A stretch of 64,000 nucleotides of DNA from Minisyncoccia bacterium (GCA_044356325.1 JBIKWJ010000002.1:24602-88601); one strand, 5' to 3'. Positions 385 through 39,671 are shown, counted from the first letter of the stretch. Made by a program: numbers and translations. The notes: generated from the sequence alone by a model not told the origin.

Positions 385-3300
385 TTGTATTATATAATCA
401 ATGTAATGACAATACAGCAGTATATAGACAATCTCAATCAAAGATACAAGCTAGGCAATGCCACCGAGCATACTTTCCGTGGAGATTTACAACAATTATT
501 AGAAAGCCTAGTGCCCGACATCCGAGCTACCAATGAGCCTAAAAGACAAAGTTGTGGTGCCCCAGATTATATACTCACCAAAAGAGATATCCCCGTTGGA
601 TTTATCGAAGCTAAAGATATCGGTGATAAAGACCTAGATGGCCTCAAAAAAACAGGTAACAAAGAACAATTTGACCGCTACAAAGACTCCCTAGACAATC
701 TCATATTCACCGATTATATCAATTTTCACCTTTACCGAGACGGTGAACTCATCACCAAAATCAGCATAGCCCAGATAACCGAAAAAGGTCTACAGCCCAT
801 ACCCGAGAATTTCTCCATATTTAGCAATCTCATCCGAGAATTCAGCACTCATATTGGACAGAATATCAAAAGTAGCAAAAAACTCGCCGAGATGATGGCA
901 GGTAAAGCAAGACTACTCTCCGATATAATCGCCAAAGCCCTCCTAAGCGATGAAGACAATCAAGAAAATAGTACCCTCAGAGAGCAAATGCTCGCTTTCA
1001 AAAAAATCCTAATCCACGATATCACCCCGCAAGGTTTTGCTGATGTCTATGCTCAGACCATAGCCTATGGGATGTTCGCTGCTAGACTGCACGATTCTAC
1101 CCTACCCACCTTTGGGAGACAAGAAGCCGCCGAACTCATACCCAAAACCAATCCTTTTTTACGAAAATTATTCGGATATATAGCTGGACCAGATATAGAT
1201 GACAGAATCAAATGGGTAGTAGATAGCCTAGCCGACATCTTCCAAGTCGCCAATGTAGACGAAATCCTACATAATTATGGAAAATCCACCAAAATGGAAG
1301 ACCCAATCATTCATTTTTATGAAAATTTCCTCAGCGAATATGACCCCAAACTCCGAAAAGCCCGAGGAGTCTGGTATACCCCACAGCCTGTGGTGAATTT
1401 TATAGTCCGAGCCGTAGACGATATACTCAAAACCGAATTTAATCTCACCCAAGGACTAGCCGACACCAGTAAAACCAATATAAATCTAAAAACTCAAACC
1501 ACCGACAATCGCACCGCCACTGGCTACAAAAGCATATCCAAAGAAGTTCACAAAGTCCAAATTCTAGACCCCGCCACCGGTACAGGAACTTTTCTTGCTG
1601 AAATAATCCGCCAAATCAATGCCAAATTCCAAGGACAGCAAGGTCTCTGGAGCGACTATGTAGATAATCATCTCCTACCCCGAGTCAATGGCTTTGAATT
1701 GCTAATGGCAAGCTATGCTATGGCACACTTAAAATTAGATTTATTATTAAGAGATACCGGCTACAAATCCAATACAGGACAGAGATTTCGAGTTTATCTT
1801 ACCAATAGCCTTGAGGAAAGCCATCCCGACACTGGCACCTTCTTTGCTAGCTGGCTCAGCACCGAAGCCAATGAAGCCAATCATATCAAAAGAGACACCC
1901 CCGTAATGTGTATAATCGGCAATCCACCGTATAGTGTTAGTAGTAATAACAAAGGAAGTTGGATTCAAAATCTAATTATGGATTATAAAAAAGATCTAGA
2001 CGAAAAAAACATTCAGCCATTATCAGATGATTACATAAAATTCATTCGTTATGGACAGTATTATATAGACAAAAACGGTAGTGGTATACTAGCATATATA
2101 TCTAATAATAGCTTTGTTGACGGAATTATTCATAAATCAATGCGAAAAAATCTATTAGAGAGTTTTGATAAAATTTATATTTTAGACTTACACGGTAATA
2201 GCAAGAAAAAAGAAATATCCCCCGACGGTAGCCCCGATGTCAATGTCTTTGATATTCAACAAGGAGTCTCAATAAATTTCTTCATCAAAACAGGAGCCAA
2301 AAAGCCTAATGACTTAGGTAAAATCTATCATTATGACCTATATGGTAAAAGAGAATCTAAATATAATTTCCTCCAAGACAATAATCTTGCCAATATAGAA
2401 TTCCAAGAATTACAACCAAAAGAACCAAATTATTTCTTTGTAAGTAAAGATTTTGAAGGAGAATCTATTTATAAAAAATATATTGATTTAAGAACTTTGT
2501 TTATTAAAAATTCTATTGGAATTGTAACTGGAAAAGATGATGAATTAGTAAGTTTTGATAAAAATATTATTCAAGATAAATTTCAAAGTTATAATAAATT
2601 TTATTATAGACCTTTTGATATTAGGTATACAATTTTTGATAATAATATTTTACAAAGGGCAAGATACAATGTTATGCAGCACTATAATTGGGGTGAAAAT
2701 TTAGGTTTAAATATAAGTAGACAATCTAAATCAAAAGGAATTGAATGTTTAATTTCAAAAAACATTACCTGCAAACATTTAATTACTGGTGAAACTTATA
2801 ATTTCCCACTTTATCTCTATCCAGAAGATCAGAATTCTGAATTTTTACAAGACAAAGCACACACTTCGACAAGCTCAGTGCAAGGTCGAACTCCAAATCT
2901 AAATACAGAAATTATAAAGCAAATTGCAGATAATTTAAGTTTGAATTTTACTAAAGAAAAAGAAACAACCAAAGACACCTTTGCCCCGATAGATATATTA
3001 GATTATATTTATGCAGTGCTACATTCCCCTACTTATAGAGATAAGTATAAAGAGTTTTTGAAAATTGACTTCCCTCGAGTACCATATCCTCAAGATATAG
3101 CTAAATTCTGGCAATTAGTCGCTCTCGGCTCTCAACTTAGAGCCCTACATCTCCTAGAAAGCCCAATTCTAGAGACATATATCACCCAATACCCAATCGA
3201 CGGTGACAATACCATCACCAATATCCAAGTAGAACCCTGTCCTCCTTCGCCTGCCTGCGGCAGGCAGGGAGGGGGAAGCCTGAAAGGCGGAGGTGGATTG

Positions 3301-3816
3301 AGCTTAGACTCTCAAACTCAACCTGAAACCTATCCACCCTCCCCCGTCGCAAATGAGATTTACTCCTGTGAAACCTCACGGTTTCCCAACCTTCCTCCAC
3401 GGGAAAACTACCGTTTTCCCGACCCCTTTCCCAGACCTTCGGTCTATATCGGGGACTCCCTCCAAAGGGAGACAGAAAACTCAAACAAACTGTCCTCCCT
3501 TGGGGGAGATGCCCGCAGGGCGGAGGAGAACTGCCCTAAAAATTCCCCTCTTGAGGGGTGGCAGGCTTCGCCTGACGGGGTGAATAAAGACACACTCAGA
3601 ATTTACATCAACCCCACCCAATACTTTGACAAAGTCCCTAAAGTCGCTTGGGAATTCTATATCGGAGGCTATCAACCAGCTCAAAAATGGCTCAAAGATA
3701 GAAAAAACAGACAACTCAACTTTGAGGATATATTACATTATCAAAAAATTATAATCGCCCTCACCAATACCCATCATCTAATGCAACAAATCAACCACAT
3801 AAATATCGAGGAGTAA
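385..3816 (+). CDS. Large single-polypeptide Type IIG/IIL-like restriction-modification enzyme: N-terminal PD-(D/E)xK nuclease-like domain plus gamma-class N6-adenine DNA methyltransferase
   Basis: N-terminal motif APDYIL...GFIEAKDIG (PD..EAK). SAM-binding motif ILDPATGTGTFLAE. Catalytic motif CIIGNPPYSV (NPPY). Conserved C-terminal FYIGGYQPAQKWLKDRKNRQL typical of YeeA/MmeI-like methyltransferases. About 116 aa of repeat-derived low-complexity sequence is inserted in frame near the C terminus. The start may instead be the ATG at 406. Confidence 0.75.
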   Translation: MYYIINVMTIQQYIDNLNQRYKLGNATEHTFRGDLQQLLESLVPDIRATNEPKRQSCGAPDYILTKRDIPVGFIEAKDIGDKDLDGLKKTGNKEQFDRYKDSLDNLIFTDYINFHLYRDGELITKISIAQITEKGLQPIPENFSIFSNLIREFSTHIGQNIKSSKKLAEMMAGKARLLSDIIAKALLSDEDNQENSTLREQMLAFKKILIHDITPQGFADVYAQTIAYGMFAARLHDSTLPTFGRQEAAELIPKTNPFLRKLFGYIAGPDIDDRIKWVVDSLADIFQVANVDEILHNYGKSTKMEDPIIHFYENFLSEYDPKLRKARGVWYTPQPVVNFIVRAVDDILKTEFNLTQGLADTSKTNINLKTQTTDNRTATGYKSISKEVHKVQILDPATGTGTFLAEIIRQINAKFQGQQGLWSDYVDNHLLPRVNGFELLMASYAMAHLKLDLLLRDTGYKSNTGQRFRVYLTNSLEESHPDTGTFFASWLSTEANEANHIKRDTPVMCIIGNPPYSVSSNNKGSWIQNLIMDYKKDLDEKNIQPLSDDYIKFIRYGQYYIDKNGSGILAYISNNSFVDGIIHKSMRKNLLESFDKIYILDLHGNSKKKEISPDGSPDVNVFDIQQGVSINFFIKTGAKKPNDLGKIYHYDLYGKRESKYNFLQDNNLANIEFQELQPKEPNYFFVSKDFEGESIYKKYIDLRTLFIKNSIGIVTGKDDELVSFDKNIIQDKFQSYNKFYYRPFDIRYTIFDNNILQRARYNVMQHYNWGENLGLNISRQSKSKGIECLISKNITCKHLITGETYNFPLYLYPEDQNSEFLQDKAHTSTSSVQGRTPNLNTEIIKQIADNLSLNFTKEKETTKDTFAPIDILDYIYAVLHSPTYRDKYKEFLKIDFPRVPYPQDIAKFWQLVALGSQLRALHLLESPILETYITQYPIDGDNTITNIQVEPCPPSPACGRQGGGSLKGGGGLSLDSQTQPETYPPSPVANEIYSCETSRFPNLPPRENYRFPDPFPRPSVYIGDSLQRETENSNKLSSLGGDARRAEENCPKNSPLEGWQASPDGVNKDTLRIYINPTQYFDKVPKVAWEFYIGGYQPAQKWLKDRKNRQLNFEDILHYQKIIIALTNTHHLMQQINHINIEE
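3238..3595. repeat. GC-rich mosaic hairpin repeat element (copy A), lying inside the RM gene ORF
   Basis: Positions 3238-3478 are about 98% identical to 4317-4558. The 3' part carries the aaaaattcccctcttgaggggtggcaggcttcgcctgacggggtg module shared with other loci. Confidence 0.85.
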
Positions 3817-3890
3817 TAATCCCCCTTAAAAAGAAAATCTCCTCCCAATCAAGCGACGGGAGGAGAAAAAATTGAACTGAAGGAAAGCTA

Positions 3891-4223
3891 CTAGAAAGGA
3901 GTCGGTCTAGATATAAGGAACTTGGTATTTCTTGTATCTTGGGCTGTTGGGGTATTCTGAGCAAGTATTGAACAGGCTTGCTCGAGTACAGGGTACTGAA
4001 CGAACAAGTTGTTTAGCATTTGAACGCTTTGATCCCCCATGGCACTCACGTGCCTAAAAATGTTGATGACTTGATCATATAAATTCTTACCATCGTTAAC
4101 TGAGTTAGATATAATGTAACTCTCGTAAGACCTAGATATTGCGAGAACTAAATTAATGATTTCCATCTCAAACACCAATGCGAAGAACATTATTTTTATA
4201 TCATATACTATTGTATTATGCAA
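3891..4223 (-). CDS. Hypothetical protein (110 aa)
   Basis: ORF with AT-rich codon usage typical of the window, followed by an inverted-repeat terminator-like hairpin at 3845-3880 (ctcctccc...gggaggag). No recognisable motifs. Confidence 0.3.
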   Translation of the reverse strand: MHNTIVYDIKIMFFALVFEMEIINLVLAISRSYESYIISNSVNDGKNLYDQVINIFRHVSAMGDQSVQMLNNLFVQYPVLEQACSILAQNTPTAQDTRNTKFLISRPTPF

Positions 4224-4235
4224 GTAGATAATTCC

Positions 4236-4668
4236 TGTGGGGGCGACCTTTCAGTCGCCTGTGTTTCCACCCCGTCCAGCAAAGCTGTCCACCCCTCAAG
4301 AGGGGAATAGTTACTTTGTCCTCCTTCGCCTGCCTGCGGTAGGCAGGGAGGGGGAAGCCTGCAAGGCGGAGGTGGATTGAGCTTAGACTCTCAAGCTCAA
4401 CCTGAAACCTATCCACCCTCCCCCGTCGCAAATGAGATTTACTCCTGTGAAACCTCACGGTTTCCCAACCTTCCTCCACGGGAAAACTACCGTTTTCCCG
4501 ACCCCTTTCCCAGACCTTCGGTCTATATCGGGGACTCCCTCCAAAGGGAGACAGAAAGACAATCCTATTCTGTCAGCAGTAAGGAGACAAAAAGCCCAAA
4601 AAATCTGTCCTCCTTCGGAGGAGGTGGTACCTCCTATACCTTTGTTTAGGAGGTACCGGAGGTGGATA
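4236..4668. repeat. GC-rich mosaic hairpin repeat cluster (copy B plus flanking modules)
   Basis: Contains the ggcgacctttcagtcgcc hairpin, the tccaccccgtc...cccctcaagaggggaat hairpin, a 242-bp near-identical copy of 3238-3478, and ctcc/ggag hairpins. Overlapping ORFs (4216..4479, 4377..4649, 4432..4671, 4455..4769) are artefacts of the repeat. Confidence 0.85.
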
Positions 4669-4731
4669 TAAAATGATAGAAAAATGAAAAAGTACCGTCT
4701 CTGTGAAACGGCACTATGTTTTTGAGACAAA

Positions 4732-4802
4732 TCGGGATGGATGGATTCGAACCACCGGCCCCTTGCCAAAGCAAGTGCGCTACCAAGCTGCGCTACATCC
4801 CG
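4732..4802 (-). tRNA. tRNA-Pro(UGG)-like gene with an aberrantly short anticodon loop (possible pseudo-tRNA)
   Basis: The reverse complement folds as acceptor CGGGATG/CATCCCG, D arm GCGC-AGCTTGGTA-GCGC, T arm GGTGG-TTCGAAT-CCATC and variable loop GGGCC. The anticodon arm is CTTGC-TTTG-GCAAG, which is a 4-nt loop instead of 7. Total length is 71 nt. Confidence 0.45.
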
Positions 4803-4808
4803 ATAAAA

Positions 4809-4880
4809 CGCGAAGAGTCGGATTTGAACCCACGACCTTCCACTTAAGTAGTGGATGCTCTACCGCTGAGCTATCTTCGC
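4809..4880 (-). tRNA. tRNA-Lys(CUU)
   Basis: The reverse complement GCGAAGATAGCTCAGCGGTAGAGCATCCACTACTTAAGTGGAAGGTCGTGGGTTCAAATCCGACTCTTCGC gives a perfect 7-bp acceptor, D arm GCTC/GAGC, anticodon arm TCCAC-TACTTAA-GTGGA (anticodon CUU), and a T arm with TTCAAAT loop (one G:G mismatch in the T stem). No CCA encoded. Confidence 0.8.
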
Positions 4881-4980
4881 ATAAACCGTATATGATTATA
4901 CGTACTTTATAGAATTTGTCAAGAGCTGGGAGAATAATTTCAAGCATAATATATAGCAAATTATGAGTTTTATACTTCGT

Positions 4981-5011
4981 GAAAAGAAAAATCCCCAATC
5001 GTATTGGGGAT
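4981..5011 (-). terminator. Rho-independent terminator for the 5042..5876 unit
   Basis: On the minus strand, hairpin atcccca-atacga-tggggat is followed by tttttcttttc. Confidence 0.55.
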
Positions 5012-5041
5012 TATGAGACTTATAAAACTTTAATTATTCCT

Positions 5042-5497
5042 TCACCTCTCCAAATATTGGTGCACGTGTAATGGTATAATTATGCCATAAAAAGCTGGGC
5101 CACCGTCTATAGTGGCAAGACTTCCTCCAACTAAATTAAAGTGATGTCTTTGTATAATGGATAACAACTCTTTTAACTCCACCCCCAAAAATTCTCTCTG
5201 AGATAATAATTGGTCATGTATTGCCAGCCACTCATCAGTACTTAGATGAACCAGCTCTGGATTGGAGTTAAAAAGCCCCAAGATCCAAGAAATTATAACC
5301 TTAATCATGAGATCTTCTTGCGAATTGCTCAATATATATATCATATAATCTATTATTTGTGAATAGGGAGCAATAGTATCTGCTGAGATAAAATATCTTG
5401 TCATCTCTTTTTGACTGCTATATATAATATTTATAAAAAAATACCCCTGCCGAAACAGGGGGTGATGTGAATCAAGTAGGGGTTTACCCAACATCAT
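5042..5497 (-). CDS. Hypothetical protein (151 aa)
   Basis: ORF followed by a terminator. Overlaps the upstream ORF by 14 nt in another frame. Confidence 0.4.
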   Translation of the reverse strand: MMLGKPLLDSHHPLFRQGYFFINIIYSSQKEMTRYFISADTIAPYSQIIDYMIYILSNSQEDLMIKVIISWILGLFNSNPELVHLSTDEWLAIHDQLLSQREFLGVELKELLSIIQRHHFNLVGGSLATIDGGPAFYGIIIPLHVHQYLER

Positions 5498-5876
5498 CTT
5501 GAAATCTCTCAGGAAGAAGCATCCGTGGACCTCCTGCTTGTACTTGGCTCAATTCCCCCTCACTGAGGGGTTGTAAGTAGAGCAAATCGCATATCAGCGC
5601 GAATTGTTGCTTGGTAATTCTGACAGGGTACGGAAGTCCTTCTTCACCCATCTCACGGGAGATCTGAGCCTCATTCTCGAGCTCTACCTTAACAAGGAGG
5701 AGAGCTTCAAGGGCGTCAAAGATATTTCGACAATGTCTCAATTTTTCAAGATCAAGATGTATAGGCCAACACACCGCGAGTTCCTCCTGAAGCAGAGGAA
5801 TGGCCCGAAGCCACTCCTCAGGCCTCAGGCAATAAGGTGAGGTGAACATTTTTCTGATAGCTGAGAAAAGTCCCAT
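5484..5876 (-). CDS. Hypothetical protein (130 aa), compositionally atypical (GC about 50%)
   Basis: Long ORF in a locally GC-rich segment next to two tRNA genes. No recognisable motifs. Confidence 0.35.
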   Translation of the reverse strand: MGLFSAIRKMFTSPYCLRPEEWLRAIPLLQEELAVCWPIHLDLEKLRHCRNIFDALEALLLVKVELENEAQISREMGEEGLPYPVRITKQQFALICDLLYLQPLSEGELSQVQAGGPRMLLPERFQDDVG

Positions 5877-5921
5877 AATAGAAGAATTGCAAATGTGCCT
5901 CCTATATATAGCACATAATTA

Positions 5922-6686
5922 CTATTTTGTCAATATTAACTGACTCCTTATACACCCCAAATATACTATACCCCCTATTATCAGATACCAATATCCTAAC
6001 CACCCAGCTATACCGGTCCAGAATATCAGACTCCATATACCAGATAAGCTAAGCCAATAGGTAATATTTTTATCCAGACTTTTACGTTTTGGGAATAATA
6101 AATAAAATCCCCAAAAAGCTAATAAACTTGTCACCATCCATCCAAAGAAATTCATCAAAGGCACATTATAATACCATCCATCAATTTCCCAAATCCAAAA
6201 TCCTAAAGCAGTAGCCCCTGGATCAAGTATCAAATCAAAGGCTGTCATCAATACTGCTCCTAATATACTTTTTACCCATATTCCCTTTAGTCCCAATCTC
6301 TCTACCAATACCAAACTCAAGAAAAAAATTGGTGTCCAAGACAAACTCACTGTCCAAGGCACTAATCCAAAGAATTTAATATTCCCGAGAAACTCACCAT
6401 ATACAAAATTGCTATATGGCCAGCCCGTTATAATAGAGAATGATTCTATCAAGATTGGATATGAGAATATAATCAGAATTTTCCACCAAGATTTCCTCCA
6501 ATCCAGCCAAAGCCATAATCCATATATCAGAGGTATAGCGAGTAATACATTGGTAAGCTGTGAAATCGCTTGGAATATCACAAAATCAAAAGGTAAAGCC
6601 TCGGGATTAATACTAAAATACACGACAAAAAACCCGCTCAAAACCAAAATAATAGATGGTACAATTACTAATAATCTCTTTTGCAT
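5922..6686 (-). CDS. Trp-rich polytopic membrane protein, possibly carotenoid-biosynthesis-protein family (CruF / lycopene-cyclase-domain-like)
   Basis: 254 aa with about 7 hydrophobic helices and many Trp residues. Positioned next to a UbiA prenyltransferase and a CrtI-family desaturase. Family assignment is from context and not verified. Confidence 0.35.
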   Translation of the reverse strand: MQKRLLVIVPSIILVLSGFFVVYFSINPEALPFDFVIFQAISQLTNVLLAIPLIYGLWLWLDWRKSWWKILIIFSYPILIESFSIITGWPYSNFVYGEFLGNIKFFGLVPWTVSLSWTPIFFLSLVLVERLGLKGIWVKSILGAVLMTAFDLILDPGATALGFWIWEIDGWYYNVPLMNFFGWMVTSLLAFWGFYLLFPKRKSLDKNITYWLSLSGIWSLIFWTGIAGWLGYWYLIIGGIVYLGCIRSQLILTK

Positions 6687-6720
6687 ATGATATACTATAT
6701 ACTATATTACATTATATCAT

Positions 6721-7560
6721 ATGAGTATTGCTAAATTATTTCGTATTTCCCGCCCCCGCTTTTGGATATATCTCCTCGGCCCCTATCTTATTGGGAGTAT
6801 ACTTGCTTTTGAGCCTACTCAACTTATATTACAATGGCAATTTTGGCTTGGATTTGTATATTTTACTTTTCCTGCCAATCTCCTTATATATGGAGTAAAT
6901 GATATTTTTGATTATGAAACTGACAAATTAAACCCCAAAAAAATAGAATATGAAACTCTCGTCACCCCAAAAGAGCGAATAAGACTTTGGCTTTTTATTC
7001 TCGCTACTAATACCCCATTTATATTCGCCCTATATCTCATAAACTCCCTCACTAGTATGGGAATATTAGGCTTTTTATTCCTTGGCATACAATATTCTAG
7101 TATCCCTATTCGCGCCAAGTCTCGACCATTCCTAGACTCCCTATTCAATATATTATATATATTCCCGGGCATTATTGGATATAGTTTATTTAGTCTATCC
7201 CTCAATTTGGATTATAGGCTTCTCATCAGTGCTGGACTATGGACAATGGCTATGCACACCTATTCCGCCATACCAGATATTGAGGCTGACAGGGCGAGTC
7301 AAACCCCTACTATTGCGACAGTACTGGGCTCAAAATTAACCCTCATTTATTGTTTTATTTGTTATACTTTGGCTGGGATTTTGTTAGCACAATTTAACCT
7401 TATACTCGGAATTGGAATAGCTATTATATATGGCTTTATGATAGGACTTAGCTATAATCAGAATTCCGCTCGAATATTCAAATTATATACCTATTTCCCC
7501 CTGCTTAATGGCATTATTGGATTTATTTTATTTTGGAGTATTGTGATTTGGTATAGGTAA
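6721..7560 (+). CDS. UbiA-family aromatic/isoprenoid prenyltransferase (lycopene-elongase-like candidate)
   Basis: Contains YGVNDIFDYETD, matching the UbiA NDxxDxxxD motif. 279 aa with about 8 TM helices. Confidence 0.6.
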   Translation: MSIAKLFRISRPRFWIYLLGPYLIGSILAFEPTQLILQWQFWLGFVYFTFPANLLIYGVNDIFDYETDKLNPKKIEYETLVTPKERIRLWLFILATNTPFIFALYLINSLTSMGILGFLFLGIQYSSIPIRAKSRPFLDSLFNILYIFPGIIGYSLFSLSLNLDYRLLISAGLWTMAMHTYSAIPDIEADRASQTPTIATVLGSKLTLIYCFICYTLAGILLAQFNLILGIGIAIIYGFMIGLSYNQNSARIFKLYTYFPLLNGIIGFILFWSIVIWYR

Positions 7561-7575
7561 AGTTTTTACAACCTC

Positions 7576-7604
7576 TTGACAAATTTTGAGAAATGTGGTA
7601 TATA
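7576..7604 (+). promoter_or_regulatory. Sigma70-like promoter (TTGACA, 17 nt spacer, TGgTATATA extended -10)
   Basis: cTTGACAaattttgagaaatgTGgTATATA, with no ORF downstream. Confidence 0.45.
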
Positions 7605-7610
7605 TAATAA

Positions 7611-7739
7611 GTATTGAGTTTAAAGAAAGATTAACCACCTTGGAACATTACCTTAATGTTCATCTGGTCTTCCTAAACCAATACACCTTATAAAGTTCCC
7701 CCCGCATACTCCCCGGTTAAGGCCGGGGTCTTTTTTTTG
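7611..7739 (+). ncRNA. Candidate small RNA (about 130 nt), promoter-to-terminator unit without an ORF
   Basis: Bounded by the promoter above and a strong terminator. Internal hairpin gaacatt-acctt-aatgttc. The 5' gtattg pairs with caatac at 7667-7672. Confidence 0.3.
7711..7739 (+). terminator. Rho-independent terminator
   Basis: ccccgg-ttaagg-ccgggg followed by tcttttttttg. Confidence 0.7.
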
Positions 7740-7799
7740 CCAAATTATTATATTATAAATCTATCGAGGGCTTTTGTCCCCGCTATACATTGTTTAGGA

Positions 7800-8260
7800 G
7801 GGGGCCGATCTTTGTTCTAAAAATTCCCCTCAAGAGGGGTGGATTCCTGCTATGTTTACATAACAGGGAGACGGGGTGGAGTGTTTGAGAGCTATTTATT
7901 AATGATTTATTCCACCCCGTCAGGCAAGCCTGCCACCCCTCAAGAGGGGAATTTAGCTCAATCCACCTCCGACCTAAAGGTCACCCACCTCCTAAATAAA
8001 TATAGGAGGGACTTAAAGCTCCTCCAAAGGAGGACAGAATAACTGTCCCTCGCTGGCGAGGGTGGCACGGAGTGCCGGGTGTGGACAAAATTTATAATTC
8101 ATAATTTCAAATTATTCCACCCCGTCAGGCAAATAGTAATCCACCCTCCCCCTACGGGTACTCCCTCCAAAGGGAGACAAATAGAGAGAGGGTTAATTTG
8201 TCTTAAAATTCCCCTCTTGAGGGGTGGCAGGCTTTGCCTGACGGGGTGGATTGAATACTC
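7800..8260. repeat. GC-rich mosaic hairpin repeat cluster
   Basis: Contains the modules attcccctcaagaggggtgg, tccaccccgtcaggcaagcctgccacccctcaagaggggaat, cctccaaaggaggacag, gtccctcgctggcgagggtggcacggagtgccgggtgtggaca, ctccctccaaagggagaca and attcccctcttgaggggtggcaggctttgcctgacggggtgga. ORFs 7839..8042 and 8079..8507 are artefacts. Confidence 0.85.
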
Positions 8261-8261
8261 T

Positions 8262-9758
8262 CTATTCCTTAAGTGGACTATCTTGTTTGATATCAGCTAT
8301 ACGCTTATATACCATTTCAGCACTAATGAGCTGAATAGGAACTCCAATACCAGGATTAGTTCCCGCTCCGACATAATACAAATTCTTCACCTTTTTAGAA
8401 TAATTATTAGGGCGGAATATTGCTGTCTGATTAATTGTATGAGCGAGCCCCAAAGCTGTACCCTTATAGGCATTATAATCTTGTTCAAAATTCTTCACAC
8501 TATATAATCTCTTATAGATAATTCTCTCCTTCAAGTCAGGAATATTCATTTCCTCTTGCATAATAGTCAAGATTTTGTCCGCATAAGCTTCAAGATGCTC
8601 CTCAGTATACTCAAGTCCTGCCGCAATAGGGACTAATACGAATAAATTCTCATCCCCTTCTGGAGCTACATTTGGGTCTGTCTTAGATGGAGCGCATACA
8701 TACATAGATGGATCCTCTGGCCACATCGGATCATCAAAAATTTGCTTAAAGTTGGTCTTCCAATCTTGAGAGAATAACAGATTATGATGAACTAAACTAT
8801 CTACTTTTCCTCTAACCCCCAAATACATAATCAAAGCTGATGGAGCGAGAATTTTTTTATCCCAATACTTTTCATCATATTCACGATACTCTACGGGAAG
8901 TAAATTGAGCTCCGTATGAGTCATATCAGCATTAGACACCACAATATCTGCCTTCACAATTTCTCGAGACTCAAGCTCCACACCAACCGCTTTACCATTT
9001 TCTACGACAATTTGTTTTACCCCATTCCCACTCACCAAATTTACTCCATTTTTCTTGGCAATATTCACCAAGGCCTCTGTAATGGTATACATACCTCGTT
9101 GTGGATAAAACACCCCCATATTAAAATCAATATGATTCATAATACTATATAAAGCCGGAGTATTATACGGAGAACTACCGAGGAAAACCAAAGGATATTG
9201 TAAAATTTTCTTTACCAAAGGATGTTTGAAATATTTGCTCACATATGCATCCATATCACTAAATACCGACAATTTTGAACCCTCAATCATAGTACGGAAA
9301 TTGATAAAATCAAAAATAGAATTATAATTCTTATACATAAACCCGTCTTTCGCAATTTCATATTGCTGGCGAGCCTTGTCTAAATATTCTCGAAGTTTAT
9401 CCCCCGCTCCAGGTTCTAATTCTTCCAAAACAGGAATATCCCGCTCCAAATTAGAAAACATATCAATAATTTTATTATCGTCTTTGAAGAATATCCGATA
9501 AGATGGGGCAAGCCGAATCAATTCCAAATGATCTTCAACTTTTTCTCCCATAAATTCAAAGAAATTTTCAAATACATCCGGCATAAGATACCAAGAAGGA
9601 CCCATATCAAAACGAAATCCCTCAGCTTCAAAGACATTGGCTCTCCCACCAAGATTTTGATTCTTCTCATATAAAGTCACCTCATATCCTTTGCGAGCCA
9701 GGATACAGGCTGTTGCCAAACCACCAATACCCCCACCAATTACAATAACTTTTTGCAT
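8262..9758 (-). CDS. crtI: CrtI-family FAD-dependent desaturase (phytoene desaturase / CrtD-like)
   Basis: N-terminal Rossmann motif VIVIGGGIGGLATACILARKGYEVTLYEKNQNLGGR and the GFRFDMGPSW motif. 498 aa, typical of CrtI. Confidence 0.8.
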   Translation of the reverse strand: MQKVIVIGGGIGGLATACILARKGYEVTLYEKNQNLGGRANVFEAEGFRFDMGPSWYLMPDVFENFFEFMGEKVEDHLELIRLAPSYRIFFKDDNKIIDMFSNLERDIPVLEELEPGAGDKLREYLDKARQQYEIAKDGFMYKNYNSIFDFINFRTMIEGSKLSVFSDMDAYVSKYFKHPLVKKILQYPLVFLGSSPYNTPALYSIMNHIDFNMGVFYPQRGMYTITEALVNIAKKNGVNLVSGNGVKQIVVENGKAVGVELESREIVKADIVVSNADMTHTELNLLPVEYREYDEKYWDKKILAPSALIMYLGVRGKVDSLVHHNLLFSQDWKTNFKQIFDDPMWPEDPSMYVCAPSKTDPNVAPEGDENLFVLVPIAAGLEYTEEHLEAYADKILTIMQEEMNIPDLKERIIYKRLYSVKNFEQDYNAYKGTALGLAHTINQTAIFRPNNYSKKVKNLYYVGAGTNPGIGVPIQLISAEMVYKRIADIKQDSPLKE

Positions 9759-10080
9759 ATATACGACATTAAATTAATTATATATAGTATATCATAGATA
9801 AACTTCTTTATGATACAATATATATAGTCCGCTTCTGTATCACCATGCCCTCTCCCGACATTATTTTGCTCTTTGATGCCGCTATCCTTTATGTTTTGGC
9901 ATTTGTATTCCTCATCAATCATTTGAGTCGAGGATTCCCCCTTTACCGAAACACACCCTATAATTTTACATTTATTCTTGCATTTGGGGTTACACTCATT
10001 GCTCTTGGTTTAAGGTTTTACCTCCTAACCATAAGATGATATTCTCCCCGCCTCCCGATCCCGTCGTGAGGCTTTTTATA

Positions 10081-10111
10081 TAAAAACCGCCGAGCTTTTG
10101 TGGGCTCGGCG
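10081..10111 (-). terminator. Rho-independent terminator on the minus strand
   Basis: cgccgagc-ccacaaaa-gctcggcg followed by ttttt when read on the minus strand. Confidence 0.65.
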
Positions 10112-10124
10112 AAAAGGTAAAATT

Positions 10125-10440
10125 AGAGATTTGAATCAGGGAGTATGACGGGATGAGGAAGTGGCCAAGGCCACTTCAGGGACAGGTGCTATCGGAGCCA
10201 CGAAAAACTTCGCTCCAGGGAATTGGGACTTGACCCAATTAACAAGAGGTTCAAGAAAAGGTGGTCTCAGTGAATACCCTGCCTCGGGTGGCCAAGGAAC
10301 AGTTTGAAACGATGATTGATTGTCGTCCGTAGGGACAGCTGCCAAATATTCTCGCCTGTGATCCCTGATAACAAGTACTCGTAACGCATAAGACGACATG
10401 GTCTTGAAGCACCGGGTTGTGACAGATTGCCCGGTATACT
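10125..10440 (-). ncRNA. GC-rich (about 50%) structured RNA candidate of about 300 nt; identity unresolved (RNase P RNA, SRP RNA, 6S-like and others are candidates)
   Basis: Sharp GC island in an AT-rich genome with many perfect helices (for example gaagtggcc-aa-ggccacttc, accggg...cccggt). A minus-strand terminator follows immediately. The only ORF here (10136..10399) is Pro/Ser-rich low complexity. Confidence 0.3.
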
Positions 10441-10579
10441 ATAGACTATGCCTATACTCTACACTATACTGGGCAGTCGCATCACATAACCCCTCTATTA
10501 AACTATACTTTATAAGACTTGTCAATATTAGATATCAGATTTACTATTTGCCAAAATATATTAGGATATAGTATACTAT

Positions 10580-10846
10580 TTGGGTTGCACTAAACAGCTC
10601 ATGGGAAAACAACCTGAAGCACTTGCAAAATTCAGCGGTCAGGAAATTGCAGATGGCTGCATAGCAATTGCAGCACATAATATTATTGGACTTAAATGGA
10701 ATAGATATTTTTCAACACAACAAGCTGCAGCCATATCCTGGCTAACATATAAGTATCGGTATTCAGAACGTACAATTGAACAGTGGTTCGGGCAATTTGA
10801 TAAATCAGTACTACCTCCCCAAAGAGAAAGACGCTGGACAATTTAG
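10580..10846 (+). CDS. Hypothetical small protein (88 aa)
   Basis: ORF only. No motif recognised. Confidence 0.25.
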   Translation: MGCTKQLMGKQPEALAKFSGQEIADGCIAIAAHNIIGLKWNRYFSTQQAAAISWLTYKYRYSERTIEQWFGQFDKSVLPPQRERRWTI

Positions 10847-10892
10847 CTCATCACGACTCAGAGCCTCGGTCACAAGATCGGGCTTTTTTCTT

Positions 10893-11171
10893 TTATGTAA
10901 TCAAAATAAATCTCGGTCCTATCAAATCACCCCCCTTTGTCACATCAGTAAGCCAACCATCTTCACCATGTACTCGCCGTACCCAAGTAATACCAGAGTC
11001 TAGATTGCGATATATCACCACAACTTCTTCATCCCATTCAGATAAAGCCAGGGAGATAATCTCATATACACTATCAGGATTACGCCAATGGACATATTGA
11101 CCTCCCACAATAATCTCGGTAGCTAAAGCCTCAATTTTTGCCTGTAATTCGATATTGGGGATATGTCCCAT
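10893..11171 (-). CDS. DUF1653-like small protein
   Basis: QYVHWRNPDSVYEIISLALSEWDEEVVVIYRNLDSGITWVRRV resembles the DUF1653 pattern Y.H.K...Y.V...A.H.E....V.Y...W.R. Confidence 0.4.
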   Translation of the reverse strand: MGHIPNIELQAKIEALATEIIVGGQYVHWRNPDSVYEIISLALSEWDEEVVVIYRNLDSGITWVRRVHGEDGWLTDVTKGGDLIGPRFILIT

Positions 11172-11270
11172 ATTATATTAATTAAATTATTTTTTTATTA
11201 TATCATAGGAAAAATAGATATTAATACATATTAGGCAAAAAAAGCTTTCGGAACATGTCTCCCTCCCTTT

Positions 11271-11714
11271 TTATTTCTTCATTATTCCTTGCACAAAACG
11301 ATAATACCGATAAATCCAAAATCCATATAATAGAGTACCTATAATATACAATAATCTCAGCCAAATCCAATATTGAGGGTCTAAATTCTCACGAAAAACC
11401 AATCCAAAAGGATACCAATATTCTCGATTCAGATAATGTACAGCAAAATAATTCTGAAGAGATGTGATAATACATCCTCCCAATACACTTTGAGACAAGG
11501 CAATGGCAAAAGTAAAGAGTAAAATACCCAATTTAGCATATATGACTATACGACTATATACTGAATTCAATATGATTTTCTTTTGAGGGAAAATTGTATA
11601 CTCTAATAGAATACACAAAGCAATAACCCAAAAAATAATCCAATAACTTGGATTATGAAGTCTATCTATCCATTGATTAATTTGTAGGGCAATTTGAGGA
11701 TTCATATATCCCAT
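11271..11714 (-). CDS. Hypothetical membrane protein (147 aa, 4 TM)
   Basis: Hydrophobic-helix ORF. Confidence 0.4.
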   Translation of the reverse strand: MGYMNPQIALQINQWIDRLHNPSYWIIFWVIALCILLEYTIFPQKKIILNSVYSRIVIYAKLGILLFTFAIALSQSVLGGCIITSLQNYFAVHYLNREYWYPFGLVFRENLDPQYWIWLRLLYIIGTLLYGFWIYRYYRFVQGIMKK

Positions 11715-11847
11715 ATTATACCAGTTGATATGAATTTGTATAGAATCTTATCCAATCCTAACTATCACTCCCGAGAAGCTTCGGCTCAAACCAAAAGAAA
11801 GTCTCCCAGTACCGTGCTTGGGAGATTTTTTGTTTTATATATCATAG

Positions 11848-12240
11848 GAGCGACCTTTCAGTCGCCCGAAAGTCCTCCTCAGCCATCTCAAATTGGATTT
11901 ACTTTGTCCTCCTTTGCCTGCCTGCGGTAGGCAGGGAGGAGGTGGCCGCCAGGCTGGAGGTGGATAATTAAAAAATATATTCTAAAATTTAATATTATTA
12001 AAAACAAATCCACCCTCCCCCTACGGGTACTCCCTCCAAAGGGAGACAAAAATCTCGAATAACCTGTCCCCCTTCGGAGGACAGAATAACTGTCCCTCGC
12101 TGGCGAGGGTGGCACGGAGTGCCGGGTGTGGACAGAGAGTTTTTAATTTATAATTTCAAATTATTCCACCCCGTCTCTCTCCTCAATAAAGTATAGGAGG
12201 GATCCACCCCTCAATTCCCACAAAATATGGGAATTTTTCT
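11848..12240. repeat. GC-rich mosaic hairpin repeat cluster
   Basis: Contains ggagcgacctttcagtcgccc, tgtcctcctttgcctgcctgcggtaggcagggagg, ctccctccaaagggagaca, gtccctcgctggcgagggtggcacggagtgccgggtgtggaca and attccaccccgtc modules. ORFs 11694..11930 and 11888..12115 are artefacts. Confidence 0.85.
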
Positions 12241-12596
12241 TTTAACACAAGAGCCCTTGACAAAATTAATAGGATGTGTTATAAACTATACTAGTTTTAG
12301 ATAGTCCTCGCTTTACTAAAAAGCCCCCACAGAGACTATCTAAAATCCAAGAGAAAAAGGGTCCTCTTACACCTCTTCCCTCTTCCCTCTTTATTCCGCA
12401 GTCCCACGCAGCATAGCTTGGGGCTTTTTTTTATATATTCCGGATGTCGTACGATATAATCAACTAGTCTCTCGGCTATATATTGACTAGAATCTATAAT
12501 AATATCTACACCAAAAATTTGTTATATCGGCAAGTCCTGGACAGCTTAAATACCGTATTGTATAACCAAAACTTTTGAGATATTCTTGATAAAATC

Positions 12597-13490
12597 CTAT
12601 CCTATCTGTTGTAATATCTGTTTCATTATTTGTTCTACTTTTATACTATTCGGTTCTGGGTGAAATTCGAGCTCGGTATCATTAACTTGTATACGATTAT
12701 TGTTGTTCGACTGTATACTATTAGATTTAATCTTTTGCATTTGTCCCCATCGAGCTACTCTATTCCAAATATGTATGGAGAATTTAGTTAATATATTCTC
12801 TAGCCACGTTTTTATGGTATAGGACTGGAAATGATTGAATATGGGATATTGGCGTGCTTTGGCTTGGGGGAATAATTCTCTTGTCCACATATTATCTTGC
12901 CAGAATTTGTTTAATAATTGCTGTGAGTTTGCTCCTATTGCGATATAATCTGCATATAATTGGGCTGAATATATATTATGGTCGAAGCGTTTGAGATTAT
13001 TCTCGGTGATATAATGATTGAGACAAAAGCGATTTTCTTCCATTTCTCCTGAGCGACGTATTCCGAGTATTTGGGTTATGCTCGTTATCAGGAATCTTGC
13101 TATCCATAAATGCTTATTTTTGGTAATAATAAATATATCGATATCACTCCTTTTTTTGGTATTACCAGTGCTAAAACTAGATGAGCCAGCCAGGAATATA
13201 CCTCGTATAAAAGGTATGCTGATTAATAACCGTCCATATTTGGTAATTTGTCTATAGCGACGTATAGATTCTCGGCCTTTTTCTTGCCTTAGGGCGAGTA
13301 ATATATCGAAATTAGGGATTAGACCATAGAGACCATATTGAGTCTTTATTTGAGGAATTTTTGCGATTTGAGAGGGCAGCTCTTGTAGGGTATATTGCGT
13401 TCCAATTTGATAGCGATATATTTCCTCGAGCGTTAGCAATCTTTTTTGAGAAGTGGCATAGGCAAAAGTTTGAAGTAATGTATGATGCAT
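12597..13490 (-). CDS. Nucleotidyltransferase-fold (Pol-beta superfamily) protein
   Basis: LAGSSSFSTGNTKKRSDIDIFII matches the G[SG]x9-13Dh[DE]h NTase signature. Confidence 0.45.
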   Translation of the reverse strand: MHHTLLQTFAYATSQKRLLTLEEIYRYQIGTQYTLQELPSQIAKIPQIKTQYGLYGLIPNFDILLALRQEKGRESIRRYRQITKYGRLLISIPFIRGIFLAGSSSFSTGNTKKRSDIDIFIITKNKHLWIARFLITSITQILGIRRSGEMEENRFCLNHYITENNLKRFDHNIYSAQLYADYIAIGANSQQLLNKFWQDNMWTRELFPQAKARQYPIFNHFQSYTIKTWLENILTKFSIHIWNRVARWGQMQKIKSNSIQSNNNNRIQVNDTELEFHPEPNSIKVEQIMKQILQQIG

Positions 13491-13523
13491 ATTGGTATAT
13501 AATTATACCTATTATATCATAAT

Positions 13524-16367: not shown

Positions 16368-16370
16368 AGT

Positions 16371-17921: not shown

Positions 17922-18279
17922 GTACTAACCACAAATAAACTCCTATTAAACTAATAGCGGCAATACTCGCCCCAAATATCCAATACACTATTATATACTG
18001 TATTGAGTGGTTCGTAAACCTCTTTTGTATATACCAAATTCCAAATCCATTAATAGCTGTAATCAAAAGAGCATATATACCATATTGCCAAACATATTTT
18101 GCTGAACCTATTACTGTTACTCCTTCATAAAAATTAAACCCTATATTAATTCCTACTCTATCTCCAAATTGCGTTTGTATACGAAACAAAAATAGAAGAA
18201 TAACAATACATAAAACTCCCATCACTAATCCATACAGAATAGTAGTTATAGGTAATTTGTAAGGAAGTTTTTGTATCAT
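17899..18279 (-). CDS. Hypothetical membrane protein (126 aa)
   Basis: Four hydrophobic helices. Overlaps the GT2 gene start by 23 nt. Confidence 0.4.
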   Translation of the reverse strand: MIQKLPYKLPITTILYGLVMGVLCIVILLFLFRIQTQFGDRVGINIGFNFYEGVTVIGSAKYVWQYGIYALLITAINGFGIWYIQKRFTNHSIQYIIVYWIFGASIAAISLIGVYLWLVLDTNIIS

Positions 18280-39668: not shown

Positions 39669-39671
39669 GCT

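What the first reader, a model, noticed from the sequence alone, without database searches (positions are those of the whole stretch)
5922..9758. CrtI/CrtD-like desaturase, UbiA prenyltransferase and a Trp-rich membrane protein together: possible C50-carotenoid (bacterioruberin-type) module
Seen in sequence: a CrtI-family FAD desaturase (8262..9758), a UbiA-family prenyltransferase with NDIFDYETD (6721..7560) and a 254-aa polytopic Trp-rich membrane protein (5922..6686) are adjacent. Established knowledge: the haloarchaeal and actinobacterial C50 carotenoid pathways use exactly this trio (CrtD desaturase, LyeJ/CrtEb lycopene elongase of the UbiA family, and a CruF hydratase or small cyclase-domain membrane protein). 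Inference: a carotenoid-tailoring module in a reduced-genome bacterium, where carotenoid synthesis would be unexpected. No phytoene synthase or GGPP synthase is present in this window, so the substrate source is unclear and the genes could instead modify another isoprenoid lipid.
Basis: partly seen in the sequence, partly recalled or inferred. Interest (0 to 1): 0.55.

Follow-up and report, generated by a model that had tools for sequence, protein, structure and literature searches.

The report
Bacterioruberin-type carotenoid genes in a Patescibacterium
A tiny-genome freshwater bacterium (Paceibacteria, candidate phyla radiation) carries three conserved genes that match the enzymes turning lycopene into the C50 pigment bacterioruberin, but the gene that makes the carotenoid backbone is not nearby, so the source of the starting material is open.

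Summary
Three intact genes sit together: a PF04240 CruF-like membrane protein (5922-6686, minus strand), a UbiA prenyltransferase (6721-7560, plus strand) and a CrtI-family desaturase (8262-9758, minus strand). The UbiA passes NCBI's model for haloarchaeal lycopene elongase LyeJ. The desaturase passes the model for the bifunctional phytoene/3,4-desaturase CrtI/D. The membrane protein is a Caroten_synth family member but scores below the CruF equivalog cut-offs.

The trio is syntenic in at least 11 related freshwater Paceibacteria species and is under strong purifying selection (dN/dS 0.02-0.17). Its three protein trees agree with each other and include Acidobacteria, Abditibacteria, other Patescibacteria and haloarchaea.

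The best reading is an acyclic C50 (bacterioruberin-type) carotenoid module. It is not new in kind, because lyeJ/crtD/cruF were reported in Lake Baikal Patescibacteria in 2023.

The linkage pattern was not noted in that report. Phytoene synthase crtB lies next to crtI in 39 of 40 loci from other lineages. It is found near crtI in 0 of 19 loci from this clade and a Saccharibacteria clade, and it is absent from 76 kb of this contig. Whether crtB lies elsewhere in the genome, or the cell tailors host-derived lycopene, could not be tested with these tools.

The parts
5922..6686 (-). CruF-like carotenoid hydratase. It is a polytopic, Trp-rich membrane protein of the Caroten_synth family. Its inferred role is C50 carotenoid hydratase, the last two steps to bacterioruberin.
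   Evidence: PF04240 at 118 bits. The best NCBIfam hits are TIGR03460 CruF at 92 bits (cut-off 154.7) and NF041333 CruF_Halo at 84 bits (cut-off 300), both below cut-off. It retains all 22 columns conserved in at least 95% of 37 homologues, including E81, D151 and D155. dN/dS within the clade is 0.09-0.17. It has 19 Trp and about 7 hydrophobic segments.
6687..6720 (.). 34-bp AT-rich spacer between the divergently transcribed cruF and lyeJ genes. Start signals for both genes must lie here or overlap the coding regions.
   Evidence: The sequence was read. One weak promoter-like match lies at 6680-6708 (+). The same tight divergent arrangement, with a spacer of about 33-35 bp, occurs in clade relatives.
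6721..7560 (+). LyeJ-type lycopene elongase/hydratase of the UbiA superfamily. Its inferred role is to add a C5 unit from DMAPP to each end of the C40 chain, with hydration.
   Evidence: NF009516 at 254.5 bits, above the cut-off of 205. The same model gives 428 bits for a Halolamina LyeJ. Identity to haloarchaeal LyeJ is 36-39%. It retains 51 of 51 conserved columns, including both Asp-rich motifs: N60 D61 D64 E66 D68, and D186 D190. These motifs align with those of ApUbiA, PDB 4OD4. dN/dS is 0.07-0.15.
7561..8261 (.). Convergent intergenic region between lyeJ and crtI. It holds a terminator-like hairpin and a block of GC-rich hairpin repeats, and it has no coding role in the module.
   Evidence: A terminator-like site lies at 7711-7728 (+). 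Repeat families D2, D3, D6 and I4, I5, I7 cover 7906-8256. In relatives this gap is empty or holds an M23 peptidase gene.
8262..9758 (-). CrtI/D-type FAD-dependent carotenoid desaturase. Its inferred roles are phytoene to lycopene, and 3,4-desaturation of the elongated intermediates.
   Evidence: NF058655 CrtID at 655.1 bits (cut-off 640) and TIGR02734 at 507 bits. The N-terminal GxGxxG motif reads VIGGGIGG. It retains 80 of 80 conserved columns. Identity to haloarchaeal CrtD is 44-46% and to acidobacterial CrtI about 60%. The nearest solved structures are 4REP and 4DGK. dN/dS is 0.02-0.05.

Best explanation
The three genes form a functional module for an acyclic C50 (bacterioruberin-type) carotenoid in a freshwater Paceibacteria/Minisyncoccia (CPR) bacterium.

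The inferred mechanism follows the haloarchaeal pathway:
1. The CrtI/D desaturase makes lycopene from phytoene.
2. The LyeJ-type UbiA enzyme adds a C5 unit from DMAPP to a chain end, with hydration.
3. CrtI/D introduces the 3,4 double bond.
4. The same two steps are repeated at the other end, giving bisanhydrobacterioruberin.
5. The CruF-like membrane protein hydrates the added units to give bacterioruberin or a close analogue.

The pigment would sit in the cell membrane. Its likely role is protection against light and oxidative damage, or stiffening of the membrane.

Shown here: family and orthologue-level assignment of two enzymes, family-level assignment of the third, conservation of catalytic motifs, synteny, co-evolution and purifying selection. 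Inferred: the chemistry, the end product and the physiological role. Unresolved: where phytoene or lycopene comes from, because crtB and crtE are not linked to the module in this clade.
For: HMM assignments:
- UbiA passes NF009516 (254.5 bits, cut-off 205) and CrtI passes NF058655 (655 bits, cut-off 640); the membrane protein matches PF04240 (118 bits).
- The three NCBIfam models are the haloarchaeal bacterioruberin enzymes. Halolamina proteins from a crtD-lyeJ-cruF cluster score 428, 747 and 345 bits on them.
- The experimental basis for CrtI/D bifunctionality is Haloarcula japonica C0507 (PMC11946383).

Conservation and co-evolution:
- All residues conserved in at least 95% of homologues, haloarchaea included, are retained in the three window proteins.
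- Neighbour-joining trees of the three proteins are broadly congruent, so they evolve as a unit.
- The trio is syntenic in 11 species-level relatives and in many independent assemblies.
- dN/dS is 0.02-0.17.
- GC content of the module (0.37-0.38) is close to that of the window (about 0.36), so this is not a recent insertion.

Context:
- uvrA lies 3.8 kb from crtI here.
- In another CPR lineage the cluster sits among uvrB, msrA, tspO, uvrA, two photolyase-family genes, nth and uvrC.
- Clade members come from lake and river surface-water metagenomes, judging by record titles.
Against: - No crtB and no polyprenyl diphosphate synthase was found in the window or in 76 kb of the contig.
- No crtB was found within about 10 kb in any of the 11 relatives, although crtB abuts crtI in 39 of 40 loci from other lineages. 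A complete de novo pathway is therefore not demonstrated.
- The CruF-like protein scores well below both CruF equivalog cut-offs, so the last step and the exact end product are less certain.
- No pigment has been measured in any Patescibacterium. The only prior report is also purely genomic.
Confidence: 0.8

Rival explanations
1. The pathway is truncated. The clade has no phytoene synthase anywhere in its genome. The trio, which is exactly the enzyme set needed from lycopene onward, converts lycopene or phytoene taken from a host or neighbour membrane into a C50 pigment.
For: - crtB is found in 0 of 11 window-clade loci and 0 of 8 loci of an independent Saccharibacteria clade. It is found in 7 of 7 other CPR loci, 27 of 28 non-CPR bacterial loci and 5 of 5 haloarchaeal loci, usually within 0-30 bp of crtI.
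- There is no crtB remnant upstream of crtI.
- None of the 120 best CrtB relatives of a Paceibacterota CrtB lies on a contig whose length matches a known contig of this clade.
- Further CPR lineages that do have crtB keep it linked, as crtE-crtB-crtI plus lyeJ.
- Uptake of a host-made isoprenoid cofactor (retinal) has been proposed for freshwater Saccharibacteria (PMC9296517).
Against: - Less than half of the 159.6-kb contig, and only a fraction of the genome, could be inspected.
- Three clade members carry a short-chain prenyl diphosphate synthase about 5 kb from the trio. Its best match is the CrtE GGPP synthase model at 420 bits, below the cut-off of 460. This hints at endogenous GGPP, although the protein also passes the FPP synthase subfamily model.
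- CrtI is the most strongly constrained of the three genes. That fits a double role that includes phytoene desaturation.
Confidence: 0.3
2. The enzymes act on another isoprenoid lipid, such as a quinone, a polyprenol or an archaeal-type lipid, and not on a carotenoid.
For: No carotenoid backbone genes are in view. UbiA-family enzymes are chemically versatile, which is general knowledge of the family.
Against: - The UbiA protein scores at most 33 bits on the MenA, UbiA, MqnP and tocopherol-type models, against 254 bits on the LyeJ model.
- It is always paired with a CrtI-family desaturase and usually with a Caroten_synth protein. In 39 of 40 loci outside the two CPR clades, crtB is adjacent.
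Confidence: 0.05
3. The trio is a decaying remnant of a once complete cluster and no longer does anything.
For: crtE and crtB have been lost from the ancestral cluster position.
Against: - The reading frames are intact and every conserved residue is kept.
- dN/dS is 0.02-0.17 across species-level divergence with saturated synonymous sites.
- Identical copies were recovered from many independent assemblies.
Confidence: 0.03
4. The module makes a cyclic C50 carotenoid of the decaprenoxanthin or sarcinaxanthin type, using CrtEb plus a small heterodimeric C50 cyclase.
For: The UbiA protein also hits two other prenyltransferase equivalog models, NF010119 and NF009608, at about 138 bits. These two models are not otherwise identified here.
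Against: - Both of those hits are below their cut-offs of 248 and 217 bits, whereas the LyeJ model is passed.
- The partner membrane protein is Caroten_synth/CruF-like, and no lycopene-cyclase-domain family was reported for it.
Confidence: 0.02

Closest known systems
Haloarchaeal bacterioruberin cluster crtD(crtI/D)-lyeJ-cruF (Haloarcula japonica c0507-c0506-c0505; Halobacterium salinarum lye)
   Same: The same three protein families are present. The window's LyeJ and CrtI/D pass the NCBIfam equivalog models that haloarchaeal proteins define. Identity to haloarchaeal proteins is 36-39% for LyeJ, 44-46% for CrtI/D and 28-35% for CruF. Catalytic motifs are conserved. A single CrtI-family enzyme is expected to do both desaturations (PMC11946383).
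   Different: Gene order and orientation differ. The archaeal genes are colinear on one strand, whereas here cruF and lyeJ are divergent and lyeJ and crtI are convergent. The CruF-like protein is below the equivalog cut-offs. crtB lies within 3 kb of the archaeal clusters but is not near this one. The host is a low-GC, small-genome freshwater bacterium.
lyeJ/crtD/cruF reported in Candidatus Patescibacteria of Lake Baikal (Haro-Moreno et al. 2023, PMC9948471)
   Same: The same three gene families in the same phylum, found by HMM search in freshwater metagenomes and interpreted as bacterioruberin synthesis.
   Different: In that report the genes were mostly unlinked or on separate reads, and crtB/crtE were not discussed. 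Here the three genes form a tight, syntenic module in a Paceibacteria clade from lakes and rivers. The absence of linked crtB was measured against 40 other loci.
Arthrobacter agilis / A. bussei bacterioruberin genes (Flegler and Lipski 2022, PMC9122864)
   Same: A bacterial lye-crtD-cruF cluster, with bacterioruberin experimentally present and needed for growth in the cold.
   Different: Arthrobacter has a separate idi-idsA-crtB-crtI cluster as well as a distinct CrtD. The window has a single CrtI-family gene and no backbone genes in view.
Acidobacterial (Pyrinomonadaceae/'Chloracidobacterium' MAG) cruF-lyeJ-crtI-crtB clusters
   Same: These show the same gene order and orientation as the window (cruF on the minus strand, lyeJ on the plus strand, crtI on the minus strand) among the non-CPR loci found. 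Identities are UbiA about 44-52%, CrtI about 58-62% and CruF about 31-41%.
   Different: crtB immediately precedes crtI, often overlapping it by 4 bp. In one locus CruF is fused to a NUDIX domain. No pigment data were found for them.
Corynebacterium glutamicum crtEb-crtYe/Yf (decaprenoxanthin)
   Same: A UbiA-family lycopene elongase makes a C50 carotenoid (established knowledge; PMC3598387 appeared in the listing but was not read).
   Different: That pathway uses small C50 cyclase subunits, not a Caroten_synth hydratase. The window's membrane protein is PF04240.

Membership tests
LyeJ lycopene elongase/hydratase (UbiA superfamily; NCBIfam NF009516) | UbiA fold with two Asp-rich motifs (NDxxDxxxD and DxxxD) | tested here: met
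   PF01040 at 73 bits. N60 D61 D64 E66 D68 and D186 D190 are conserved in 47 homologues and align with the motifs of ApUbiA, PDB 4OD4.
LyeJ lycopene elongase/hydratase (UbiA superfamily; NCBIfam NF009516) | Scores above the curated equivalog cut-off and better than on other UbiA subfamilies | tested here: met
   254.5 bits against a cut-off of 205. The MenA, UbiA, MqnP and phytyltransferase models give at most 33 bits. A haloarchaeal LyeJ scores 428 bits on the same model.
LyeJ lycopene elongase/hydratase (UbiA superfamily; NCBIfam NF009516) | Genomic association with a CrtD/CrtI desaturase and with CruF | tested here: met
   The genes are adjacent in the window and in most of the 80 related loci.
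LyeJ lycopene elongase/hydratase (UbiA superfamily; NCBIfam NF009516) | Catalyses C5 addition to lycopene, with hydration | not testable with these tools
   This needs heterologous expression and HPLC-MS.
Bifunctional CrtI/CrtD desaturase (NCBIfam NF058655) | FAD-binding Rossmann motif and CrtI-family fold | tested here: met
   GGGIGG at residues 8-13. NAD_binding_8 and Amino_oxidase match. TIGR02734 scores 507 bits. Solved relatives are 4REP at 2.8e-75 and 4DGK at 1.3e-65.
Bifunctional CrtI/CrtD desaturase (NCBIfam NF058655) | Scores above the curated equivalog cut-off | tested here: met
   655.1 bits against a cut-off of 640, a narrow margin. A Halolamina orthologue scores 747 bits. An acidobacterial one that sits next to crtB scores 612 bits, which is below the cut-off.
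Bifunctional CrtI/CrtD desaturase (NCBIfam NF058655) | [quoted passage not shown] | not testable with these tools
   This has been shown only for Haloarcula japonica C0507 and D1086 (PMC11946383). Here it is inferred from orthology and from this being the only CrtI-family gene in the window.
CruF bisanhydrobacterioruberin hydratase (PF04240; TIGR03460 / NF041333) | Membership of the Caroten_synth family | tested here: met
   PF04240 at 118.3 bits against a cut-off of 25, covering profile positions 12-205 of 209.
CruF bisanhydrobacterioruberin hydratase (PF04240; TIGR03460 / NF041333) | Scores above the CruF equivalog cut-offs | tested here: not met
   TIGR03460 gives 92.1 bits (cut-off 154.7) and NF041333 gives 83.8 bits (cut-off 300). 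Other bacterial homologues next to lyeJ also fall below: Abditibacterium 150 bits, Uhrbacteria 129 bits.
CruF bisanhydrobacterioruberin hydratase (PF04240; TIGR03460 / NF041333) | Residues conserved across lyeJ-linked CruF proteins, haloarchaea included | tested here: met
   22 of 22 columns conserved in at least 95% of sequences are retained.
Complete bacterioruberin pathway (crtE, crtB, crtI/D, lyeJ, cruF) | Phytoene synthase (PF00494) is present | tested here: not met
   It is absent from the 64-kb window and from contig positions 21,322-97,850. It is absent within about 10 kb in 11 relatives. The rest of the genome could not be read, so 'not met' applies only to the sequence in view.
Complete bacterioruberin pathway (crtE, crtB, crtI/D, lyeJ, cruF) | GGPP synthase is present | tested here: inconclusive
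   None is in the window. Three clade relatives have a CrtE-like or FPP-synthase-like gene about 5 kb from the trio. It scores 420 bits on NF045685 (cut-off 460) and 334 bits on the FPPsyn subfamily model (cut-off 275).
Cyclic C50 pathway (CrtEb plus CrtYe/Yf) | Small lycopene-cyclase-domain membrane subunits next to the elongase | tested here: not met
   The neighbouring membrane protein is PF04240. The two small ORFs beyond it (5042-5497 and 5484-5876) have no family hits and are not conserved next to the trio in relatives.

The most novel reading that the evidence does not exclude
Two independent CPR clades, this Paceibacteria clade and a Saccharibacteria clade, have kept only the lycopene-to-bacterioruberin enzymes and lost crtE and crtB altogether. 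These episymbiotic cells would then take phytoene or lycopene from a host's membrane and remodel it into their own C50 pigment. That would be a carotenoid version of the lipid and retinal scavenging already proposed for CPR bacteria.
Probability: 0.3. Interest if true: 0.7.

Novelty: new member of a known kind. Interest (0 to 1): 0.42.

Why it matters
CPR/Patescibacteria are thought to make few of their own lipids, and no pigment has been measured in them. A conserved, selected C50 carotenoid module in abundant lake and river Paceibacteria predicts that these ultra-small cells are pigmented. It also predicts that they invest in protecting their membranes from light or cold.

The sharp contrast in crtB linkage (0 of 19 loci against 39 of 40) gives a concrete, cheap test of whether some CPR lineages depend on a host for the carotenoid backbone. 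If they do, the pigment would be a natural tracer of lipid transfer from host to symbiont, and possibly a clue to host identity.

The enzymes are non-halophilic, low-GC versions of LyeJ, CrtI/D and CruF. The haloarchaeal CrtI/D proteins gave no carotenoids beyond phytoene when expressed in E. coli (PMC11946383), so these versions may be easier to express there.

Tried and rejected
**Search for crtB in this clade**
- tblastn with an acidobacterial CrtB and a clade polyprenyl diphosphate synthase found nothing in the window.
- A 160-sequence CrtB profile, run with filters off against six-frame translations of the window and 25 clade loci, found nothing, not even a remnant upstream of crtI.
- The last large protein search used a Paceibacterota CrtB as query. 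The four hits looked up (P0150, P0153, P0185) were other CPR lineages with linked crtE-crtB-crtI-lyeJ clusters, not this clade.
- No hit's longest contig matched the known contig lengths of the clade. This excludes only close CrtB relatives on those contigs.
- Extending the view beyond both window ends found no crtB.
- Walking further along the contig is not possible with the tools.

**Other leads**
- Lycopene-cyclase-domain reading of the membrane protein: rejected.
- Menaquinone, ubiquinone, MqnP or tocopherol-type (homogentisate phytyltransferase) reading of the UbiA protein: rejected.
- The small ORFs next to cruF (5042-5876) as part of the module: rejected. They have no family hits and are not syntenic in relatives.
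- The promoter and terminator scan gave counts near the shuffled expectation and was not used for any claim beyond one terminator-like site.
- Literature searches linking Abditibacterium to bacterioruberin found nothing.
- The metagenome-contig scan, the structure prediction and the representative-library search were not used. None of them could tie a crtB to this genome.

Full report
**1. What is in the sequence**

- 5922-6686 (-) encodes a 254-aa protein with 19 tryptophans (7.5%) and about seven hydrophobic segments.
- 6721-7560 (+) encodes a 279-aa UbiA-family protein with the motif NDIFDYETD at residues 60-68.
- 8262-9758 (-) encodes a 498-aa flavoprotein that starts with VIGGGIGG.

cruF and the UbiA gene are divergent and separated by only 34 AT-rich bases. 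The UbiA gene and crtI are convergent and 700 bp apart. That gap holds a terminator-like hairpin and a block of GC-rich hairpin repeats.

**2. Family assignment**

- *Membrane protein.* It matches Pfam Caroten_synth PF04240 at 118 bits.
- *UbiA protein.* In NCBIfam it scores 254.5 bits on NF009516 (cut-off 205). It scores at most 33 bits on the MenA, UbiA, MqnP and phytyltransferase models.
- *Desaturase.* It scores 655 bits on NF058655, 'bifunctional phytoene desaturase/3,4-desaturase CrtID' (cut-off 640), and 507 bits on crtI_fam.
- *What the models stand for.* I scanned the proteins of a canonical crtD-lyeJ-cruF cluster from Halolamina. They score 428 bits on NF009516, 747 bits on NF058655 and 345 bits on CruF_Halo. 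These models are therefore the haloarchaeal bacterioruberin enzymes.
- *Basis of the CrtID name.* I take it to rest on the demonstration that Haloarcula japonica C0507 has both CrtI and CrtD activity (PMC11946383).
- *CruF equivalog models.* The window's CruF-like protein hits them only below cut-off: 92 bits against 154.7, and 84 bits against 300. So do other bacterial lyeJ-linked homologues. It is a family member but not an equivalog by NCBI's thresholds.
- *Solved structures.* The relatives are as expected: 4REP and 4DGK for the desaturase, and a marginal match to ApUbiA (4OD4) that aligns both Asp-rich motifs.

**3. Organism**

The window is part of JGI 3300037508 contig Ga0335038_0000009, which is 159,584 bp long. 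Its other genes are ordinary housekeeping genes.

Sequences that share 90%-identity protein clusters with the window's proteins, and the close relatives found by the UbiA query, are labelled Candidatus Parcubacteria, Paceibacteria or Minisyncoccia by several independent groups. The related MAGs come from lake and river surface-water projects, judging by their record titles.

**4. Comparative picture**

A scan of one genome per GTDB species with the UbiA protein returned 80 loci. I searched all of them with tblastn and with profile HMMs for five proteins. The groups are:
- **(A) The window's clade.** 11 species, with UbiA identity 76-94%, CrtI 90-96% and CruF 70-92%. The arrangement is always cruF (-), lyeJ (+), crtI (-).
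- **(B) A Saccharibacteria clade.** The order is crtI-cruF-lyeJ.
- **(C) Other Patescibacteria.** These include Uhrbacteria, other Paceibacterota and Saccharibacteria. They carry crtE-crtB-crtI plus lyeJ, with or without cruF. Three further examples came from CrtB look-ups.
- **(D) Non-CPR bacteria.** Many Acidobacteria (Pyrinomonadaceae and 'Chloracidobacterium' MAGs), Abditibacteria including the cultured Abditibacterium utsteinense, a Kapaibacterium and some Proteobacteria MAGs.
- **(E) Haloarchaea and one Nanohaloarchaeota MAG.** These have the colinear crtD-lyeJ-cruF order.

Neighbour-joining trees of the three proteins are broadly congruent. The window clade is sister to another Parcubacteria sequence, and haloarchaea form the outgroup.

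The window proteins keep every column conserved in at least 95% of sequences: 51 in LyeJ, 22 in CruF and 80 in CrtI/D.

Within clade A, dN/dS is 0.07-0.17 for cruF and lyeJ, and 0.02-0.05 for crtI, at synonymous divergences up to saturation. The module is therefore old in this clade, functional and selected. Its GC content matches the genome.

**5. The missing backbone genes**

No SQS_PSY or polyprenyl_synt domain occurs in any window ORF of at least 120 aa. A CrtB profile built from 160 sequences finds nothing in six-frame translations of the window or of 25 clade loci. With the flanks that could be fetched, contig positions 21,322-97,850 are free of both genes.

The contrast with other lineages is sharp. 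Among loci with at least 1.5 kb of sequence upstream of crtI, the number with crtB in the locus is:

| Group | Loci with crtB |
|---|---|
| A, window clade | 0 of 11 |
| B, Saccharibacteria clade | 0 of 8 |
| C, other Patescibacteria | 7 of 7 |
| D, non-CPR bacteria | 27 of 28 |
| E, haloarchaea | 5 of 5 |

Where crtB is present it usually lies 0-30 bp from crtI.

Three clade-A members have a short-chain prenyl diphosphate synthase about 5 kb from the trio. Its best match is the CrtE GGPP synthase model at 420 bits, below the cut-off of 460. It also passes the FPP synthase subfamily model. The window's genome lacks this gene at the syntenic site.

I could not read the rest of any clade genome. 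A search with a Paceibacterota CrtB returned only other lineages among the hits I could inspect. Whether crtB lies elsewhere or is absent remains open. I put about 0.3 on true absence with a host-derived substrate.

**6. Mechanism**

Shown: the family and orthologue assignments, motif conservation, synteny, co-evolution and selection.

Inferred, by analogy with the Haloarcula and Arthrobacter pathway (PMC11946383, PMC9122864):
1. CrtI/D converts phytoene to lycopene.
2. LyeJ adds C5 and hydrates.
3. CrtI/D desaturates at the 3,4 position.
4. The same steps follow at the other chain end.
5. CruF hydrates bisanhydrobacterioruberin to bacterioruberin.

The role is inferred to be photoprotection or membrane stabilisation. 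uvrA lies 3.8 kb away in the window. In another CPR lineage the cluster is embedded among uvrB, msrA, tspO, uvrA, two photolyase-family genes, nth and uvrC. The Baikal authors proposed cold adaptation or membrane curvature instead.

**7. Novelty**

The gene families and the pathway are known. Their presence in Patescibacteria was published in 2023 on genomic grounds (PMC9948471). That was the only paper in the library linking bacterioruberin genes to this phylum.

The window adds a tightly linked, widely conserved version in freshwater Paceibacteria. It also adds the observation that two CPR clades have dropped crtE and crtB from the cluster. I rate it a new member of a known kind, with moderate interest. 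It would be more interesting if the backbone genes prove to be absent genome-wide.

**8. Side observations**

These are listed separately in the report. The most curious is a conserved tRNA-Pro-like gene whose anticodon arm ends in a four-base loop.

Noticed in passing
window 4731-4803 (-); also L001 12755-12827, L016 8568-8640, L021 4394-4466: A tRNA-like gene lies next to tRNA-Lys(CTT), and its anticodon arm is a 5-bp stem closed by a 4-nt loop (TTTG here; TTCG or TACG in relatives), so it has no anticodon. ARAGORN reports 'tRNA-???' and Rfam tRNA gives 58.5 bits. The gene is conserved in four species of the clade, with compensatory changes in the acceptor, anticodon and T stems. All three tested copies fold as a cloverleaf. 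From memory, the acceptor stem (C1:G72, A73), D arm and variable loop resemble bacterial tRNA-Pro. In one relative (L003) a normal tRNA-Val(GAC) lies in the corresponding interval between cruF and the tRNA synthetase gene. Function unknown.
   Followed up: partly
window 3232-3605, 4266-4622, 7906-8256, 11899-12134, 25353-25408, 27801-27958, 60418-60486: A family of GC-rich, stacked-hairpin repeats is scattered through intergenic DNA of this 36% GC genome. One block of about 375 nt lies in frame inside the Type ISP restriction-modification ORF (385-3816). It begins where the best Pfam Type_ISP_C match stops (residue 951, profile position 273 of 342). A 241-nt piece of it recurs at 99% identity at 4317-4557.
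   Followed up: partly
L096 (GCA_964517945.1, CAZFFL010000007.1), locus 2062-18105: In another CPR lineage, crtE-crtB-crtI and lyeJ sit within one block of light- and oxidative-damage genes: uvrB, msrA, tspO, uvrA, a cryptochrome/photolyase pair, nth and uvrC. This supports a photoprotective role for the pigment.
   Followed up: no
L075, L079, L086, L096, L100, L104 against the window clade and L028-L068: CPR carotenoid clusters come in two near-complementary forms. One is crtE-crtB-crtI plus lyeJ with no cruF within 10 kb. The other is cruF-lyeJ-crtI with no crtE or crtB. Only Uhrbacteria (L046, L047) and L069 have all five genes together.
   Followed up: partly
L089 (Candidatus Nanohalarchaeota MAG NHA29), locus 566-3660: A DPANN archaeon, from a lineage known as a symbiont of haloarchaea, carries a colinear crtD-lyeJ-cruF trio. 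No crtB lies in the 9 kb downstream, and the upstream side is cut by the contig end. This parallels the CPR case.
   Followed up: no
L019 2104-3027, L023 3622-4467 (= L003 15500-16345), L025 4559-5365: Three clade relatives carry a short-chain prenyl diphosphate synthase between the tRNA synthetase and glutaredoxin genes, about 5 kb from the trio. From memory, its FARM region (IHTMSLIHDDLPPID) looks like cyanobacterial or plastid GGPP synthase. It scores 420 bits on NCBIfam CrtE (cut-off 460) and passes the FPP synthase subfamily model. The window's genome lacks it at that site.
   Followed up: partly
L027 (Cytophagales MAG, JBIKRJ010000010.1) 10001-10840: A lone UbiA gene 67% identical to the window's LyeJ sits among non-CPR genes (trpE and histidine kinases), with no crtI, cruF or crtB within 10 kb. 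It could be a transfer to or from the CPR clade, or a contig placed in the wrong bin.
   Followed up: partly
L066 and L084 (Absconditabacterales and an unclassified MAG): The crtI, crtB and lyeJ homologues are split into several pieces by in-frame stops when translated with table 11. This is what is expected if these lineages read UGA as a sense codon (code 25), not pseudogenes.
   Followed up: no
window 39027-43013: A four-gene block encodes a 7TM_transglut membrane protein, an ATPgrasp_ST protein with a C-terminal Zn_protease domain, and two RimK-like ATP-grasp ligases. It looks like a peptide-ligation or modification system and is unrelated to the carotenoid genes.
   Followed up: no
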